A DNA stretch of 64,000 bases from contig OZ251219.1 in the NCBI GenBank assembly GCA_965240465.1, forward strand, positions 1,535,139 to 1,599,138, read 5' to 3'. This DNA comes from a bacterium (lineage in GTDB: Bacteria; SAR324; JACQKK01). The position numbers were made by a program. Below are positions 1 through 64,000 of this stretch, piece after piece (position 1 is the stretch's first letter; every line of letters starts with the position of its first letter).

Positions 1-3000
1 GACGACGGTTTAGTACTACCACCCAAGGTAGCTCCACTCCAAGTGGTCATTGTTCCGATTGCCAAAACCGAAGCCGAAATAAAAAAAGTCATGCCAATCG
101 CAGAAAAAATCGCTGCCAACCTTCAGGAAAACTTTGAGCCACATCGCATCAAACTAGACCAAAATTTCGATGACCGACCCGCAGAACGCTTCTTCCACTG
201 GATACAGCAAGGAGTACCACTAAGAATAGAAATAGGATCTCGCGACATCGCCCAAGAGCAAGCCATCCTGGTCAGGCGTGATAACAGAGAAAAAATTACG
301 ACCTCCTTTTCTTCTTTGACACAACAAGTCCAGCAAACCATGGAGAAAATCCAACTAAACCTGCTACAAAATGCCCAAAAATTTCAACATCAGCATTCAT
401 ATCAGGTAGATTCCCTCCCCCAATTTCAACAGCAAATTGAACAAGGAGGATTCTGCTACGCTCACTGGGATAACACCACAAAATCCGAACAAAGGCTCAA
501 ATCCTTAGCTAAGGCTACTCTTCGCTACATCCCTTTTAAGCCTTCCGACCTGCCACCACATATCAGCCCAGAACCCGGTAAATGCATTGTTAGCGGCCAG
601 CCATCTAAGCAGCGAGTATTGTTTTCTCAGGCTTACTGAGGTTAAATTATCACCGCCCCCGATGGTGATAGGTTGAAAAAATTTGGGAGTATCAGTATGG
701 CACCTCAAGGTTATCGGGCTTTGGATGTAGAGGGGGTCAGGGCTTATGGTGCCGATGCCGATGCGATTAGCAATATTTTGGGCGGGGATGCTCCCGACTG
801 GCAAATAAGAGAGGTGGGAGATGGCAACTTAAACTTGGTCTTTGTGCTGAAAGGAACCAGCGGTGCTTGTGTGGTAAAGCAAGCCCTGCCATATATGCGA
901 GTAATCGGGGAAAGCTGGCCTTTGTCGTTGGAGCGTAATCGGTTTGAGTATCATTGCTTGGTTCGCCATGCTCGCTGTGTGCCTACTCTAATTCCTAGTT
1001 TGTATCATCATGATGAGACGATGGCATTGATGGCTATGGAATATCTAACGCCGCATATCATCTTGCGGAAAGAATTAATCGCTGGACAGCAATTTCCACT
1101 GGTAGCAGAACATATGGCAGAATATATGTCCCAGACCTTGTTCAAAACATCTGACCTATATTTGAAGCCAGAAAAAAGGCGAAAAGATCTGCGTTTGTTC
1201 TCGGAAAACAACCAACTATGTGAAATTACCGAAAATGTGGTTTTCACTGACCCCTATCTTGACTCTGAGATGAATCGTTGGACTAGTCCTCAGCTGGATA
1301 AGCTGGTAGCAGAGTTTCGGGCTGATAAAAAATTGAAGCAAGCCTCCCAAGAGTTAAAATTCAAATTTGCCACCGCGGCTGAATCTCTGTTGCATGGCGA
1401 CCTACACTCAGGCTCTGTTATGGTCACCGAACAGGAAACTAAGGTGATTGATCCTGAATTCGCATTTTATGGTCCAATGGGTTTTGATGTGGGAGCCTTA
1501 CAAGCTAATTGGTTGCTGGCTTATTTTTCTCAGCCTGGACACGAACAAAAAGCTCGGGAAAGGGAGCAGTACCAAAGTTGGATACTGCAACAAGTGCGGG
1601 ATACATGGCGTCTGTTTGCCGAGAAATTTAGCAGGCTCTGGCAAGAGGAACGCTGTGGAACGGCATTTAGTCGCTCGCTGTTGAAACAGGATACTGAGGC
1701 ACTAGATTGCTTCCTACAAAGGCTACACCAAGATGCGATTGGATTCGCTGGGGCTAAGATGGTGCGGCGTCTGATAGGAGTGGCACATGTAGAGGATATG
1801 GAAGCGATTGAAAACCCAGACCTACGTGCCAAATGTGAAGAAAAAGCCTTGCAGCTGGGTCGTCTGCTGATGCTGGAAAGAGCCAGCGACTTCCAAGAAG
1901 TCTGCCAGTTAGCCCAAAACTTAGAGAGGCGGGACTTGGGGAGGCGAGACTTGGGGGCTTGACTTGGGGGCTTGACTTGGGGGCTTGACTTGGGGGCTTG
2001 ACTTGGAGAGGCGGGACTTGGGGGCTTGACTTGGGGGCTTGACTTGGAGAGGCGGGACTTGGGGGCTTTCCAGTTAAGGAGGAACTTTCCCGTTAAGGAT
2101 GCCTGCAACATCTGGCTTATTTGGCGGTGAGGATGCTAATACGTTCTGGATGAGAAGGTTGGGACTTGGGGGCTTTCCAGTTAAGGAGGAACTTTCCCGT
2201 TAAGGATGCCTGCAACATCTGGCTTATTTGGCGGTGAGGATGCTAATACGTTCTGGATGAGAAGGTTGGGAGTTGGGATCATCGGGGGGGGATGGAGCTG
2301 CGGGGGCTGGGGGGGCTGGGGAGGGAATTGCGAGGGCGGGGGTGGAGGGAATTGCGAAGGCGGGGGTGGAGGGAATTGCGAAGGCGGGGGTGGAGGGAAT
2401 TGCGAAGGCGGGGGTGGGGGATTTTGATTGGACGGAATTATTAGGGGATTTGGATGTTGGGCGGGAAGTTCGTGGTTCTGCCAAGAGGTTTTTGAAAGCG
2501 ATGTTGCGTTCGGTGAGGAAGTCGGTAAGTTGTTTGAGGACGAGGATATTGTCTTGAGGGAATTTTCTACCACTGATTTCAAATTTTGCTGGTGAGGGCA
2601 GGGCTTTTAGGGCTATGAGCAGGGATTTTTCTTGGGTTTTCAGTTGCTGAGGGGTAAGTTGGCGAGCTGTTTGATGTTCCTTGATGACGGACTGAAACAC
2701 GACTTTTAGGAGTGCCTCTTGTTTGAGCATGTCTTTTAGGAATAGGTGTTGGAGGAAGCGGAGGTACTCGGTGGCAGTATGTTGGGGGATGGCTAGCTTA
2801 ATGGCTAGTGGTTCTCCAGTGCGGATACCCAGGATGATGAGGGGTAATTGTTCTCCTCCGATCGCCGACGAGATGAATTGATGACTGCTATGAAGAAAGT
2901 GCAACAACGCGGTAAGAGGCTGAGTATTTAGGGGAGCGGGCGGTTCGGGGTAATAGCGGATTTCCAGTGTTTGGGTGTTTTTGGGGAGGGGGGGAGAAGC

Positions 3001-63000: not shown

Positions 63001-64000
63001 AGGGCTATGCACTGGGAGCGGAGTCTCACCTATCCTAAATCCCGCCTCATCACCTAAAAAACCTAGCCCCGAACTAATATTCTGCTCTCTCAACCTCCTA
63101 GAAACATTGGAAAACAACATCCATGCCAACCCTCCTAACGCCAGCAAAGTCGCTAACTGATAACCCCACCCCCATAAACGCTCATTGTATCCCCCCCCCA
63201 GCGTAAATTATTAAATCTGTCTCGCTGCTTCAAGCTAACCTCACACAAAAAAACCCGCCTCATCAACTGGAACCAGAGACGAGGCAGGTTAAACGCCTAG
63301 ACCGATCATCCTGCCCATTCTAACAGAATAAGCAAGTCAAACGCCTACTAGGCCGCTTTGCCCATTCTAACGAATAGGAGGGGCATACAACAATCCGCCC
63401 TTGCTCGCCAACTGATTGAGACCACGCTCCAAGCGTAAAGGAGTTTTTGGTCCTAAATTACGCTCAAAAATCTCACCATAATTGCCAGACTTAGCAATCG
63501 CTCTGACCGCCCAGTCTTGTGGCAAACCAGCATCCGGACCAAATGAACCAGTCTTACCTAACATACGCTGCACTTCAGGATCTTTTGAAGAACGAGCTAT
63601 CTTACTGACATTCCTACGGGTAATACCCTTTTCCTCAGCGATAATGGTGGCATTCAATACCCAGCGAACAATGTCACCAAACTGTTGATCGCCTTGTGCT
63701 ATTGCAGGACCTAAAGGCTCTTTGGAAATAATATCTGATAAAATTACGTACGCTTTTGGATCCTTAAAAACAGAATGCTGTCCCGCTAAAATAGAAACAT
63801 CGGCAGTATAGGCATCACAACGACCAGCTTCAAAAGTAATCGCGGCATCATCTGTACGTTCCAACACTACGGACTTGTACTTCAAACTGTTGGTACGGAA
63901 ATAATCAGATAAATTAAGCTCCGAAGTAGTTCCAGCATTAACACAAACAGTGGCTCCGTTTAAGTCTTTCGCACTCTTTACGCCACTCTTACGACGAACC

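What a model noticed while it worked through the whole genome (the two positions that open the first line are those of the whole stretch)
1..64000. Genome-wide burst of short tandem repeats, in frame in 15% of genes including S16 and NusA
G000 carries 491 tandem-repeat loci of 8-60-bp period (30.7 per 100 kb), three to four times the density in its relatives. Units are unrelated to each other and periods peak at 13-16 bp between genes and 12, 15 and 18 bp within genes. 193 ORFs carry in-frame peptide repeats, among them ribosomal protein S16 (978208-978885, (TKATE)x16 tail) and NusA (1262441-1264192, 12 aa x 15). This looks like a lineage-specific mutational process filtered by reading frame.
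Evidence so far: TRF counts: G000 30.7 per 100 kb against G001 8.8, G008 7.0 and G009 10.0; 95 kb of C1 lies in repeats. Periods divisible by 3 in 322 of 346 genic against 76 of 261 intergenic loci. 193 of 1318 ORFs; sequences in call 64. 10 of 15 repeats with 3 or more copies align mostly to gaps in the G001 orthologue. S16 ORF 225 aa against 170, 153, 129, 129 and 89 aa in relatives. No shared motif. The finding spans contig positions 1 to 1599138; this window holds only 1535139 to 1599138 of it.
(Added by a program. Inside this text positions count along the whole contig: contig position 1,535,139 is position 1 of the stretch shown here. "Call 12" and the like, gene names such as g00115 and contig names such as C1 are that model's own, and its searches are not shown. 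The text may have been shortened before it was handed on; [...] marks where a part breaks off. The agent that wrote the report below was given it as the finding of a first reader that could run no searches.)

Follow-up and report, generated by a model that had tools for sequence, protein, structure and literature searches.

The report
Origin-mirrored tandem repeat proliferation
Two small sister bacterial genomes are packed with hundreds of unrelated 12-16-base tandem repeats copied from local sequence, kept in frame inside genes, and their density rises and falls as a mirror image on both sides of the replication origin.

Summary
The repeat richness is real. G000 has 645 merged TRF loci covering 6.6% of 1.6 Mb; a shuffled control gives 8. 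Units are unrelated between loci. Periods fall in a sharp 12-16 bp window. In genes that have an orthologue, 197 of 211 repeat loci have a period divisible by three. S16, NusA, SucD and YchF carry in-frame arrays amplified from resident sequence.

The claim of a G000-specific burst is wrong. More distant relatives lie 4-40 times lower.

The unexplained unevenness has a structure. In both genomes repeat density, and GC3 outside repeats, mirror each other on the two replichores around the dnaA/GC-skew origin (arm-to-arm r 0.91 and 0.79). Orthologues keep their distance from the origin (rho 0.93), yet the two profiles are in anti-phase (r -0.85). So neither gene content nor origin distance alone sets the state.

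Best reading: replication-linked slipped misalignment that duplicates local sequence, modulated along the replichore and filtered by reading frame. No causal gene loss was established. The closest precedents are Portiera BT, Borg elements, and mutation-rate waves in mismatch-repair mutants.

The parts
1919..2277 (.). Composite arrays (periods 13, 41, 67 and 107 bp) at the convergent ends of the APH-family kinase ORF (673-1962) and ORF 2224-3471
   Evidence: TRF rows; merged locus; Pfam APH
2320..2421 (-). 24 bp x 4.3 in-frame array, (STPAFAIP)x4, near the C-terminus of ORF 2224-3471. G001 has one copy, split as PLPAF..VPIP
13429..13581 (.). 25 bp x 6.1 array in the spacer upstream of the AIRS-domain gene (13615-14601)
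17759..17833 (.). 13 bp x 5.8 intergenic array between ruvB (16426-17550, minus strand) and ORF 17892-18662
21293..21458 (.). 22 bp x 6.8 array ending 2 bp before the start of the RrnaAD (KsgA-type) gene at 21460
24001..30000 (.). Replication terminus region. The cumulative GC-skew maximum of the genome lies at contig position 1,562,156, which is window position about 27,018. Skew changes from +0.13 to -0.24 here
25399..26153 (+). In-frame 27/54-bp repeat family (GGEAPYQAR / AGGTQAR units). It forms an N-terminal insert of about 270 aa in the Rsm22-like methyltransferase ORF 25287-27488, which is 733 aa against 462 aa in G001
29696..29732 (+). 12 bp x 3.1 in-frame array (SLQQ units) inside the YchF-type GTPase gene 29155-30156. 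It is a 6-aa insert relative to G001 and G008
34786..35115 (.). Three unrelated arrays (15 bp x 5.1, 13 bp x 3.2, 20 bp x 3.5) that fill one 330-bp divergent spacer
36652..36794 (.). 12 bp x 12.1 array that starts at the stop codon of the aromatic amino acid lyase gene (35110-36654). One contig joint in two runs of one sample skips 106 bp inside it
40274..40595 (.). 14 bp x 22.6 array filling the spacer between ORF 39712-40257 and the ATP synthase alpha gene (40625-42151). It creates spurious ORFs on the minus strand
   Evidence: Public contigs stop at both of its edges
46098..46245 (.). 11 bp x 4.9 and 15 bp x 4.1 arrays upstream of, and running into the start of, the ATP synthase beta gene (46212-47627)
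51474..51821 (.). 14/28/56-bp array and a perfect 14 bp x 4.9 array in the divergent spacer between the CHASE2 cyclase gene and the LysE gene
52558..52648 (.). 19 bp x 4.6 array upstream of the succinyl-CoA ligase beta gene (52724-53899)
54577..54649 (+). 15 bp x 4.9 in-frame array, (ITKPS)x5, inside the succinyl-CoA ligase alpha gene (53902-54843). G001 (MNKP) and G008 (VTKP) have a single copy of the motif at that place

Best explanation
G000 and its only close relative G001 are two reduced Acidobacteriota-like genomes of 1.6-1.7 Mb. Both are undergoing a continuing, replication-linked process in which short stretches of resident DNA, mostly 12-16 bp, are duplicated in place and then expanded head to tail. 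The inferred mechanism is slipped-strand or template-switch misalignment of the nascent strand. Each array is seeded by its own local sequence, so units are unrelated. Selection then removes arrays that break reading frames. What remains is in-frame, mostly P/S/A/T/E/K-rich peptide inserts in 11-15% of ORFs, housekeeping genes included, and a roughly six-fold denser population of arrays of any period between genes. The rate of accumulation is not uniform. It is a mirror-symmetric function of distance from oriC on both replichores and co-varies with GC3 of non-repeat codons, so some feature of replication progression or error correction modulates it. The two species carry this profile in anti-phase although their genes keep the same distance from the origin. 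Shown here: the anatomy, the frame filter, in-situ origin, genus-level sharing, mirror symmetry, and anti-phase. Inferred: slippage as the mechanism, ongoing activity, and a replication-timing cause.
For: Density and control: 645 loci against 8 in shuffled sequence. Unrelated units: 482 clusters from 495 units; the shuffled-unit control gives 4 non-singleton clusters against 11 observed. In-situ amplification: sucD, ychF and ORF2224 each have one copy of the motif in G001 and/or G008. Frame filter: 197 of 211 loci in G000 and 116 of 132 in G001, in genes with an orthologue; exceptions sit at ORF ends. Intergenic periods divisible by three: 54 of 197 and 63 of 146. Period window, at 4 or more copies: G000 11:7, 12:45, 13:27, 14:23, 15:46, 16:14, 17:4; G001 11:4, 12:38, 13:22, 14:17, 15:32, 16:6. 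Youth: 19% and 25% of arrays are perfect and 40% and 44% are at least 95% matched; only 14 of 399 G001 units share a 12-mer with G000 units. Phylogenetic gradient (period 8-30, at least 3 copies, per 100 kb): G000 21.0, G001 13.4, G008 3.5, G009 2.7, G030 3.9, G019 0.5, G020 0. Mutational rather than protein-level cause of the profile: genic and intergenic counts per 50 kb co-vary, rho 0.71 and 0.75. Mirror symmetry: the best of 79 fold points in G000 is 600 kb (r 0.88), with the skew minimum at 607,845 and dnaA at 605,584. In G001 the origin fold has r 0.85, rank 5 of 86. The GC3 fold scan ranks the origin 3 of 79 and 2 of 86. Arm-to-arm r is 0.91 and 0.79. Anti-phase: orthologue distance from the origin has rho 0.93, between-genome profile r is -0.85, and across 50 synteny blocks rho is -0.50, with 18 rich/poor, 9 poor/rich, 2 rich/rich and 3 poor/poor blocks. 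Precedents for repeat proliferation and for mirrored mutation-rate waves: PMC3673631, PMC9879509, PMC6606806, PMC6106087 (passages or abstracts read).
Against: No enzyme loss or gain that explains the process was established. PolA 5' nuclease, MutS, MutL, RNase HI, RNase HII, RecA, RecJ and ExoVII-L are all present. PF00929 exonucleases were not found, but they are also missing in 16 of the 31 genomes searched. The canonical PcrA/UvrD-like helicase was not found in G000 or G001, but neither was it found in G005 and G018, whose small samples (31.5 and 48 kb) show baseline repeat density. Copy-number polymorphism is not shown; public runs are held only as k-mer contigs that break at the arrays. 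Slippage alone does not predict a sharp onset at 12 bp. Known mutation-rate waves have 2-4-fold amplitude and are seen in repair mutants (PMC6606806), whereas here the amplitude is 7-fold and about 18-fold with MutS and MutL present. Amino-acid branch lengths do not differ by domain state (173 triples). The symmetry statistic rests on two genomes and strongly autocorrelated profiles. In G001, four fold points at the centres of single peaks score higher than the origin.
Confidence: 0.6

Rival explanations
1. One reading: a burst specific to G000, three to four times denser than in any relative.
For: G000 is the densest genome measured: 40.3 loci per 100 kb and 6.6% of bases, against 26.3 and 2.1% in G001.
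Against: Complete G001 has 453 loci with the same period window, frame filter and regional structure.
Confidence: 0.05
2. Recombination-driven origin: zones of frequent double-strand-break repair or gene conversion between chromosome copies both expand repeats, by unequal exchange or synthesis-dependent annealing, and raise GC3 by GC-biased gene conversion. The mirror symmetry then reflects juxtaposed chromosome arms.
For: Repeat density tracks GC3 of non-repeat codons: per block rho is 0.70 in G000 and 0.83 in G001. RecA, RuvB, RecJ and an AddB-like nuclease are present. Rearrangements are overwhelmingly symmetric about the origin (rho 0.93), as expected if the arms lie side by side.
Against: Units of 12-16 bp are far below the homology usually needed for RecA-mediated exchange (recalled, not tested here). 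No population data were available to measure recombination. Amino-acid divergence does not differ between zones.
Confidence: 0.17
3. A dedicated enzyme with a 12-16-nt ruler makes the duplications. Examples would be staggered nicking followed by fill-in, or faulty Okazaki primer or flap processing whose flap length sets the unit.
For: There is a sharp onset at 12 bp and decline after 15-16 bp in both genomes, even for arrays with at least 4 or at least 6 copies. Portiera BT shows a different but equally sharp characteristic period of 7 bp (PMC3673631, passage read).
Against: No candidate was found. No reverse transcriptase and no Y-family polymerase were found. PolA 5' nuclease and both RNase H genes are present as in the relatives. 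There is no strand asymmetry of intergenic arrays beyond background skew. The proteome was not annotated completely.
Confidence: 0.1
4. Adaptive origin: arrays are selected, as contingency or variable loci or to create disordered linkers, as proposed for Borg elements.
For: Repeat peptides are enriched in P, S, A, T, E and K. Many arrays are near-perfect.
Against: Arrays are about 6 times denser per kb between genes than within them, and both classes follow the same chromosomal profile. They occur in operon spacers and in housekeeping enzymes. The same genes are repeat-rich in one species and repeat-poor in the other.
Confidence: 0.05
5. Assembly artefact: repeats are inflated or created by long-read assembly or polishing.
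For: Exact copy numbers could not be verified. Public contigs break at the arrays, and one joint skips 106 bp in the 12-bp array at 36652-36794.
Against: An artefact would not respect reading frames (197 of 211). It would not recur with different units in an independent assembly, nor follow distance from the origin. Unique flanks are matched by public contigs with 0 differences in 13 of the 16 listed pieces.
Confidence: 0.03

Closest known systems
Portiera aleyrodidarum BT (whitefly endosymbiont): lineage-specific proliferation of short tandem repeats (Sloan and Moran 2013, PMC3673631; passages read)
   Same: A reduced genome in which one lineage, but not its more distant relatives, accumulated short tandem repeats with a sharp characteristic unit length. 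Repeats are concentrated between genes and linked to genome instability. A DnaQ-type exonuclease is absent.
   Different: The Portiera unit spike is at 7 bp, here 12-16 bp. Portiera repeats are intergenic, whereas here 11-15% of ORFs carry in-frame arrays. Portiera lost dnaQ, mutL, ssb and clamp-loader genes, whereas here MutS and MutL are present, and PF00929 is also missing in 16 of 31 genomes searched. No origin-mirrored profile is mentioned in the passages I read.
Tandem repeats of Borg extrachromosomal elements of Methanoperedens (Schoelmerich et al., PMC9879509 and its preprint; passages read)
   Same: Pervasive head-to-tail repeats with units unique to each locus and derived from local sequence. 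All genic units are divisible by three, against 14-38% of intergenic ones (here 27% in G000 and 43% in G001). They create disordered amino-acid repeats and are virtually absent from related genomes.
   Different: Borgs are linear archaeal elements; this is a bacterial chromosome. Borg repeats are mostly perfect and A-enriched, whereas here only 19% are perfect and A is 26% of unit bases. There are 460 regions in 10 Borgs against 336-536 in this one genome, under different criteria. The Borg authors argue for selection; here the intergenic excess argues for mutation plus purifying selection.
Mirrored wave of base-substitution rates about the origin in mismatch-repair-deficient bacteria (Niccum et al. 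2019, PMC6606806; Dillon et al. 2018, PMC6106087; abstracts, passages and one section read)
   Same: A mutational property varies along the chromosome as a wave mirrored on the two replichores, on a scale of hundreds of kb (about 800 kb in Vibrio). It is attributed to replication timing, nucleoid structure and error correction.
   Different: Those waves concern base substitutions in laboratory mutation-accumulation lines of repair mutants and have 2-4-fold amplitude. The word 'indel' does not occur in PMC6606806. Here the variable is standing tandem-repeat density plus GC3 in natural genomes with MutS and MutL present. Amplitude is 7-fold and about 18-fold, and the phase is opposite in two sister species.
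Ehrlichia ruminantium tandem repeats of 'actively variable copy number' (Collins et al. 2005). Only the title phrase was seen, through citing papers in the search listing; details are recalled.
   Same: A small intracellular-type genome with an unusually high load of tandem repeats of many unrelated units.
   Different: As recalled, those repeats lie mainly in non-coding DNA, have a wide period range, and sit in a 27% GC genome. No narrow period window or origin symmetry is known to me.

Membership tests
Slippage-generated variable-number tandem repeats (minisatellite-like arrays) | Head-to-tail copies of a unit derived from the local sequence | tested here: met
   TRF arrays. A single ancestral copy is present in G001 and/or G008 at sucD, ychF and ORF2224. 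Units are unrelated between loci.
Slippage-generated variable-number tandem repeats (minisatellite-like arrays) | Copy number varies between individuals or cells | tested here: inconclusive
   Only k-mer contigs of two runs from one sample were available, and they break at the arrays. One joint skips 106 bp in the array at 36652-36794, at about 1/6 to 1/4 of local depth. A G001 paralogue family carries 2 or 3 copies of one unit.
Borg-type pervasive repeats with amino-acid tandem repeats | Genic units all divisible by three, intergenic ones mostly not | tested here: met
   197 of 211 in trusted genes against 54 of 197 intergenic in G000. 116 of 132 against 63 of 146 in G001.
Borg-type pervasive repeats with amino-acid tandem repeats | Near-perfect repeats with A-enriched units | tested here: not met
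   19% of arrays are perfect and the median match is 93%. Unit composition is A 0.263, C 0.234, G 0.246, T 0.257.
Portiera-BT-type repeat proliferation after loss of replication and repair genes | Sharp lineage-specific spike in unit length | tested here: met
   A 12-16 bp window is seen in both genomes at all copy-number thresholds. Portiera's spike is at 7 bp.
Portiera-BT-type repeat proliferation after loss of replication and repair genes | Coincident loss of dnaQ, mutL and other replication genes | tested here: inconclusive
   PF00929 was not found in G000 or G001, but it is also missing in 16 of 31 genomes searched. MutS_I and MutL_C are present. The canonical PcrA/UvrD-like helicase was not found in G000 or G001, while an orthologue was found in 26 of the other 29. 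G005 and G018 also lack it and are repeat-poor in small samples.
Origin-mirrored mutation-rate wave | Profile symmetric about oriC on both replichores | tested here: met
   In the fold scan the origin ranks 1 of 79 (G000) and 5 of 86 (G001). For GC3 it ranks 3 of 79 and 2 of 86. Arm-to-arm r is 0.91 and 0.79. The origin is fixed independently by GC skew and dnaA.
Origin-mirrored mutation-rate wave | Seen in mismatch-repair-defective backgrounds with 2-4-fold amplitude | tested here: not met
   MutS and MutL domains are present. Amplitude is 7-fold and about 18-fold. Whether the repair proteins are active cannot be tested here.
Dispersed mobile repeat family (MITE or REP-like) or CRISPR array | Shared consensus sequence across loci, or repeats separated by unique spacers | tested here: not met
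   482 clusters from 495 units. Arrays are head to tail without spacers. There are no Rfam matches in the window.

The most novel reading that the evidence does not exclude
Standing tandem-repeat density and GC3 in these genomes are an evolutionary record of a replication-timing-dependent error or repair regime. A mirrored 'mutational wave' of 7-fold to about 18-fold amplitude acts on slippage-type events and on base composition in nature, and its phase has flipped between two sister species whose genes kept their distance from the origin. If so, the topology of mutation along a bacterial chromosome is an evolvable trait. It decides which housekeeping proteins acquire new disordered inserts in each lineage.
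Probability: 0.4. Interest if true: 0.8.

Novelty: new variant of a known kind. Interest (0 to 1): 0.7.

Why it matters
Genome-wide repeat proliferation in a reduced bacterial genome is known in kind (Portiera BT, Ehrlichia ruminantium, Borg elements). Three things here are unusual.

First, the scale inside genes is large. In-frame arrays sit in 11-15% of ORFs, including S16, NusA, YchF and succinyl-CoA ligase. That makes these genomes a natural experiment on how much insertion core proteins tolerate.

Second, the 12-16-bp unit window is narrow and shared by two species, which points to a physical ruler in the underlying process.

Third, a mirror-symmetric profile around the origin links repeat birth and base composition to replication. 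That profile is in anti-phase between sister species.

Mirrored mutation-rate waves have so far been laboratory observations of modest amplitude in repair mutants. A strong natural imprint would make their evolutionary consequences directly measurable.

Tried and rejected
1. Gene co-orientation with replication as the cause of repeat-rich zones. There is a trend in G000 (0.66 co-oriented in poor zones against 0.45 in rich zones), but none in G001 (0.48 against 0.51). Rejected.

2. Faster protein evolution in repeat-rich zones. In 173 orthologue triples with G008 or G009 as outgroup, the ratio of unique changes G000/G001 is 1.25, 1.45 and 1.26 in the rich/poor, poor/rich and rich/rich classes, and no correlation appears. 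Rejected within limited power; only 12 triples fall in one class.

3. Gene content as the determinant. Orthologous blocks have opposite states in the two genomes. Rejected.

4. Loss of a single repair gene. Seventeen family searches were made. Only PF00929, RecQ_Zn_bind, SbcD, the Y-family polymerase and the canonical PcrA/UvrD-like helicase were not found in G000 and G001, and each is also missing in some repeat-poor relative. No cause was established.

5. Strand asymmetry of intergenic arrays. Mean GC skew on the leading strand is 0.066 and 0.090, at the background level.

6. Protein lengthening in rich zones. No significant length difference between orthologues was found.

7. An early 9-mer clustering of units produced one giant cluster by chance matches. 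It was replaced by 12-mers with a shuffled control.

8. Sequencing runs: no RNA holder is listed. The laid runs are contigs that end at the arrays, so neither expression nor copy-number variation could be assessed.

Baselines therefore rest on partial samples: G008 400 kb, G009 260 kb, G019 200 kb, G020 100 kb, G030 76 kb, G027 20 kb, G018 48 kb and G005 31.5 kb.

11. Literature searches for a repeat-rich or reduced Acidobacteriota symbiont, and for an origin-related tandem-repeat distribution in bacteria, listed nothing on this organism or pattern. Subscription journals are not covered.

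
Full report
**What was checked**

The finding covers a whole 1,599,138-bp single-contig genome (G000, 45.4% GC); the window is its last 64 kb. I ran TRF on the window and on the whole genome. I fetched the complete sister genome G001 (1,724,560 bp, 49.8% GC) and partial samples of eight further relatives. All were analysed with one TRF setting (2 5 7 80 10 50 500), plus a min-score-30 run on G000.

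Genes were called with a crude longest-ORF heuristic: 1306 ORFs in G000 and 1542 in G001. For that reason I also report counts restricted to ORFs with a reciprocal best hit between the two genomes; there are 969 such pairs.

The nearest named relatives of NusA are Acidobacteriota or Polarisedimenticolia MAGs at about 48% identity. Family-level relatives have 2.3-5.2 Mb genomes, so G000 and G001 are reduced genomes. Their lifestyle was not determined.

**The observation**

- G000 has 1000 TRF rows, which merge into 645 loci covering 105,414 bp, or 6.6% of the genome. A locally shuffled copy gives 8 loci.
- 536 loci have period 8-60 (33.5 per 100 kb). 336 have period 8-30 with at least 3 copies.
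- The window holds 34 loci. Almost every spacer between window positions 1,900 and 54,700 carries one, including a 14 bp x 22.6 array just upstream of the ATP synthase alpha gene.
- Periods are divisible by three in 336 of 372 genic loci and 54 of 197 intergenic loci.
- In ORFs with a G001 orthologue the figure is 197 of 211. The 14 exceptions sit mostly at the extreme 5' or 3' ends of my over-long ORFs.
- 188 in-frame arrays lie in 150 of 1306 ORFs.
- The S16 (TKATE)n tail and the NusA 12-aa tail are as described.
- Units are unrelated. 495 units of 12-60 bp form 482 clusters by shared 12-mer, with 11 non-singleton clusters against 4 in a shuffled-unit control.

**The unit-length window is real**

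With at least 4 copies, where units of 7-11 bp would be detectable, the counts by period are:

| Period (bp) | 11 | 12 | 13 | 14 | 15 | 16 | 17 | 18 |
|---|---|---|---|---|---|---|---|---|
| G000 | 7 | 45 | 27 | 23 | 46 | 14 | 4 | 17 |
| G001 | 4 | 38 | 22 | 17 | 32 | 6 | 0 | 1 |

The same holds at a TRF minimum score of 30. Between genes the mode is 13-14 bp. Within genes the same window is sampled at 12, 15 and 18 bp.

**Arrays are amplified resident sequence**

- In succinyl-CoA ligase alpha, G000 reads ITKPS five times where G001 has MNKP and G008 has VTKP once.
- YchF has SLQQ units, a 6-aa insert relative to both relatives.
- ORF 2224-3471 has STPAFAIP four times where G001 has one split copy.
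- The Rsm22-like methyltransferase carries an N-terminal repeat block of about 270 aa that G001 lacks.
- Across all 151 in-frame arrays with an orthologue the picture is mixed. 24 align almost wholly to gaps, 50 have at most 1.5 units aligned, and 49 align mostly to residues. The last group is often explained by the orthologue having its own variable segment at that place, as at the C-terminus of ORF 6475-7425.

**Correction: the phenomenon is genus-wide**

Complete G001 has 453 loci (26.3 per 100 kb; 24.6 for period 8-60). It shows the same period window and the same frame filter: 200 of 244 genic, 116 of 132 in trusted genes, and 63 of 146 intergenic loci are divisible by three.

The arrays themselves are not inherited from the common ancestor. 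Only 14 of 399 G001 units share a 12-mer with any G000 unit. In addition, 19% and 25% of arrays are perfect.

For period 8-30 with at least 3 copies, densities per 100 kb are as follows:

| Genome | Density per 100 kb | Sample |
|---|---|---|
| G000 | 21.0 | whole genome |
| G001 | 13.4 | whole genome |
| G008 | 3.5 | 400 kb |
| G009 | 2.7 | 260 kb |
| G030 | 3.9 | 76 kb |
| G019 | 0.5 | 200 kb |
| G020 | 0 | 100 kb |

Fragmented short-read MAGs may under-represent arrays. G008 (6 contigs) and G009 (10 contigs) are the fairest baselines.

**The unevenness has structure**

Both genomes alternate between repeat-rich and repeat-poor zones of 100-400 kb. Poor zones are at the family baseline; rich zones reach 30-55 per 100 kb.

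- Genic and intergenic arrays follow the same profile, rho 0.71 and 0.75 per 50 kb. In G000 there are 1.86 intergenic arrays per kb of spacer in rich bins against 0.26 in poor bins, and 0.32 against 0.05 per kb of coding sequence. The profile therefore reflects mutational input, not protein-level selection.
- GC3 of codons outside repeats tracks repeat density. Per gene, rho is 0.35-0.40 in G000 and 0.49-0.62 in G001. Per synteny block, rho is 0.70 and 0.83.
- At orthologous genes the two genomes are opposite. Per gene rho is -0.49 to -0.54. Over 50 synteny blocks rho is -0.50, with 18 blocks rich/poor, 9 poor/rich, 2 rich/rich and 3 poor/poor.
- GC3 of orthologues is essentially uncorrelated per gene (rho 0.10) and negative per block (rho -0.37).

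**Mirror symmetry about the origin**

The cumulative GC-skew minimum of G000 is at 607,845 and dnaA is at 605,584-606,018. In G001 the skew minimum is at 1,716,537 and dnaA at 24.5 kb, which is 32 kb away on the circle.

I folded each repeat-density profile (20-kb bins, 600 kb either side) at every possible point.
- In G000 the best of 79 fold points is 600 kb (r 0.88).
- In G001 the origin fold has r 0.85 and ranks 5 of 86. The four better folds are the centres of single peaks.
- The GC3 profile ranks the origin 3 of 79 and 2 of 86.

Loci per 50 kb by distance from the origin are as follows:
- G000 right arm: 27, 31, 29, 29, 22, 10, 19, 12, 5, 5, 8, 26, 39, 27, 16, 8, 6, 1, 20, 1
- G000 left arm: 22, 34, 24, 21, 21, 10, 19, 4, 3, 1, 2, 13, 21
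- G001 right arm: 1, 0, 3, 1, 3, 5, 8, 21, 12, 21, 19, 10, 5, 2, 5, 3, 6, 10, 3
- G001 left arm: 0, 2, 3, 8, 11, 16, 20, 41, 34, 23, 32, 30, 26, 22, 13, 5

Arm-to-arm r is 0.91 over 12 bins in G000 and 0.79 over 15 bins in G001. Amplitude is 7-fold and about 18-fold.

Orthologues keep their distance from the origin: Spearman 0.93, median difference 44 kb, and the maximum over 500 random origin pairs is 0.92. Rearrangements have therefore been mostly symmetric about the origin. On that conserved map the two profiles are in anti-phase, r -0.85 over 0-600 kb.

Consequently, neither gene content nor distance from the origin as such fixes the state. A lineage-specific, replication-linked modulation does. 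The evidence has limits: two genomes, strongly autocorrelated profiles, and fold-scan ranks rather than formal probabilities.

**What does not explain the zones**

- Gene co-orientation with replication shows a weak trend in G000 and none in G001.
- Amino-acid substitution rates do not differ by zone in 173 triples.
- Intergenic arrays show no strand asymmetry beyond background skew.
- G/C runs of at least 6 also follow the profile (rho 0.65 and 0.78), with about 3-fold amplitude. Part of that is simply base composition.

**Search for a genetic cause**

| Status in G000 and G001 | Family |
|---|---|
| Present, as in G008, G009 and G004 | PolA 5' nuclease |
| Present | MutS domain I |
| Present | MutL C-terminal domain |
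| Present | RNase HI |
| Present | RNase HII |
| Present | RecA |
| Present, with about 28 profile positions unmatched | ExoVII large subunit |
| Present | RecJ |
| Present | one PDDEXK_1 nuclease |
| Not found | DnaQ/ExoI/ExoX-type exonuclease (PF00929) |
| Not found | RecQ zinc-binding domain |
| Not found | SbcD |
| Not found | Y-family polymerase |
| Not found | reverse transcriptase |

- PF00929 is missing in 16 of the 31 genomes searched, including several that are 92-99% complete. RecQ_Zn_bind was found only in G004, and SbcD was not found in G009 either.
- The one difference close to genus-specific concerns UvrD-family helicases. G008, G009 and G004 each have two strong ones; G000 and G001 have one.
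- The retained helicase is the orthologue of the more divergent G008 paralogue, at 49% identity against 34% to the other.
- The missing one is the more canonical PcrA/UvrD/Rep-like protein (NCBIfam pcrA 612 bits, below the equivalog cut-off).
- Orthologues of it at 41% identity or more occur in 26 of the other 29 relatives. It was not found in G005, G012 or G018.
- Loss of UvrD is reported to enhance tandem-repeat rearrangement in E. coli and to slow replication in D. radiodurans (PMC4627823, passages read).
- However, G018 (48 kb sampled, 1 locus) and G005 (31.5 kb sampled, 2 loci) are at baseline.
- The helicase loss is therefore a candidate contributor and not an established cause. Those two MAGs are fragmented, so its absence there is itself uncertain.

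**Independent check of the assembly**

Two public runs of one sample hold 95-96% of the sampled words of window 33000-42000. They may be the source sample, so they are not independent support. Their contigs match the unique sequence of window 25000-42000; 13 of the 16 listed long pieces show no difference. The contigs stop at the arrays at 29086-29132, 30160-30187, 36652-36794 and 40274-40595.

One joint skips 106 bp inside the 12-bp array at 36652-36794, at depth about 22 of 141 in one run and 21 of 91 in the other. That could be a shorter allele or a graph artefact. Copy-number polymorphism therefore remains unshown.

The frame rule, the recurrence in an independent assembly with different units, and the origin symmetry together make an assembly artefact very unlikely.

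**Comparison with what is known**

- Portiera BT shows a lineage-specific proliferation of short repeats with a spike at 7 bp, in spacers, together with the loss of dnaQ, mutL and other genes (PMC3673631).
- Borg elements show pervasive, locus-unique repeats that arise from local sequence. All genic units are divisible by three, against 14-38% of intergenic units. There are 460 regions in ten genomes.
- Mirrored waves of base-substitution rate about the origin, with 2-4-fold amplitude, are known from mutation-accumulation lines of repair mutants. They are attributed to replication timing, nucleoid proteins and error correction (PMC6606806, PMC6106087). In Vibrio they are driven mainly by G:C to A:T transitions.

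The present case combines these features. It is a bacterial chromosome with Borg-like anatomy and a Portiera-like characteristic period. Unlike any of the three in the text I read, it has an origin-mirrored profile of repeat density and GC3 that is inverted between sister species.

My searches listed no paper on this organism or on an origin-mirrored tandem-repeat distribution. They cover open-access papers and bioRxiv only, and I did not see the supplementary tables of the Borg paper on repeats per replichore.

**Verdict**

The process belongs to the genus, not to G000 alone. The most interesting result is new: the replication-mirrored, anti-phase profile. The mechanism is inferred, and no causal gene was established.

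Noticed in passing
window 24001-30000: The genome's cumulative GC-skew maximum, at contig position 1,562,156 (window position about 27,018), falls here, so the replication terminus probably lies inside the window. No dif site was sought.
   Followed up: partly
window 42159-43605: An N6_N4 DNA methylase gene (42159-43091) and an overlapping 189-aa ORF lie between the ATP synthase alpha (40625-42151) and gamma (43872-44747) genes, so they interrupt the operon. A second methylase, Eco57I-like, lies at 15114-16355 next to ruvB.
   Followed up: no
G000 contig 255,696-273,061 (outside the window): The RNase HI gene is followed by four C-terminal RNase H fragments with in-frame stops at 261.3, 264.8, 267.9 and 271.4 kb, spaced 3.1-3.5 kb apart. 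They are interleaved with 354-375-bp-period repeats. This looks like a tandem segmental duplication that carried the 3' end of rnhA.
   Followed up: partly
G000 and G001, whole genomes: Orthologues keep their distance from the origin (rho 0.93), while arm and strand are often swapped, across 171 synteny blocks. This is a textbook pattern of repeated origin-symmetric inversions in a reduced genome.
   Followed up: partly
G000, G001 and 29 relatives: A DnaQ/ExoI/ExoX-type exonuclease domain (PF00929) was found in only 15 of 31 genomes of this order, yet in all 10 bacterial control genomes. Proofreading in this clade may rest on another domain.
   Followed up: no
window 30185-34781: Two adjacent large minus-strand ORFs (876 and 639 aa) carry many GLUG motifs and a 93-bp internal repeat. 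Public contigs show many alternative joints here, which suggests paralogue or strain variation.
   Followed up: no
window 27002-27364: In run X1 the only contig covering this stretch differs at 8 positions and has 4 small insertions, while X2 matches the window. A second strain may be present in that sample.
   Followed up: no
G001 contig 1,251,939-1,293,031: One 15-bp unit recurs in 8 loci here, spaced about 1.6 kb apart within two clusters, with a ninth at 541,943. Copy number is 2 or 3. This is a duplicated gene family in which the small array varies between paralogues.
   Followed up: partly
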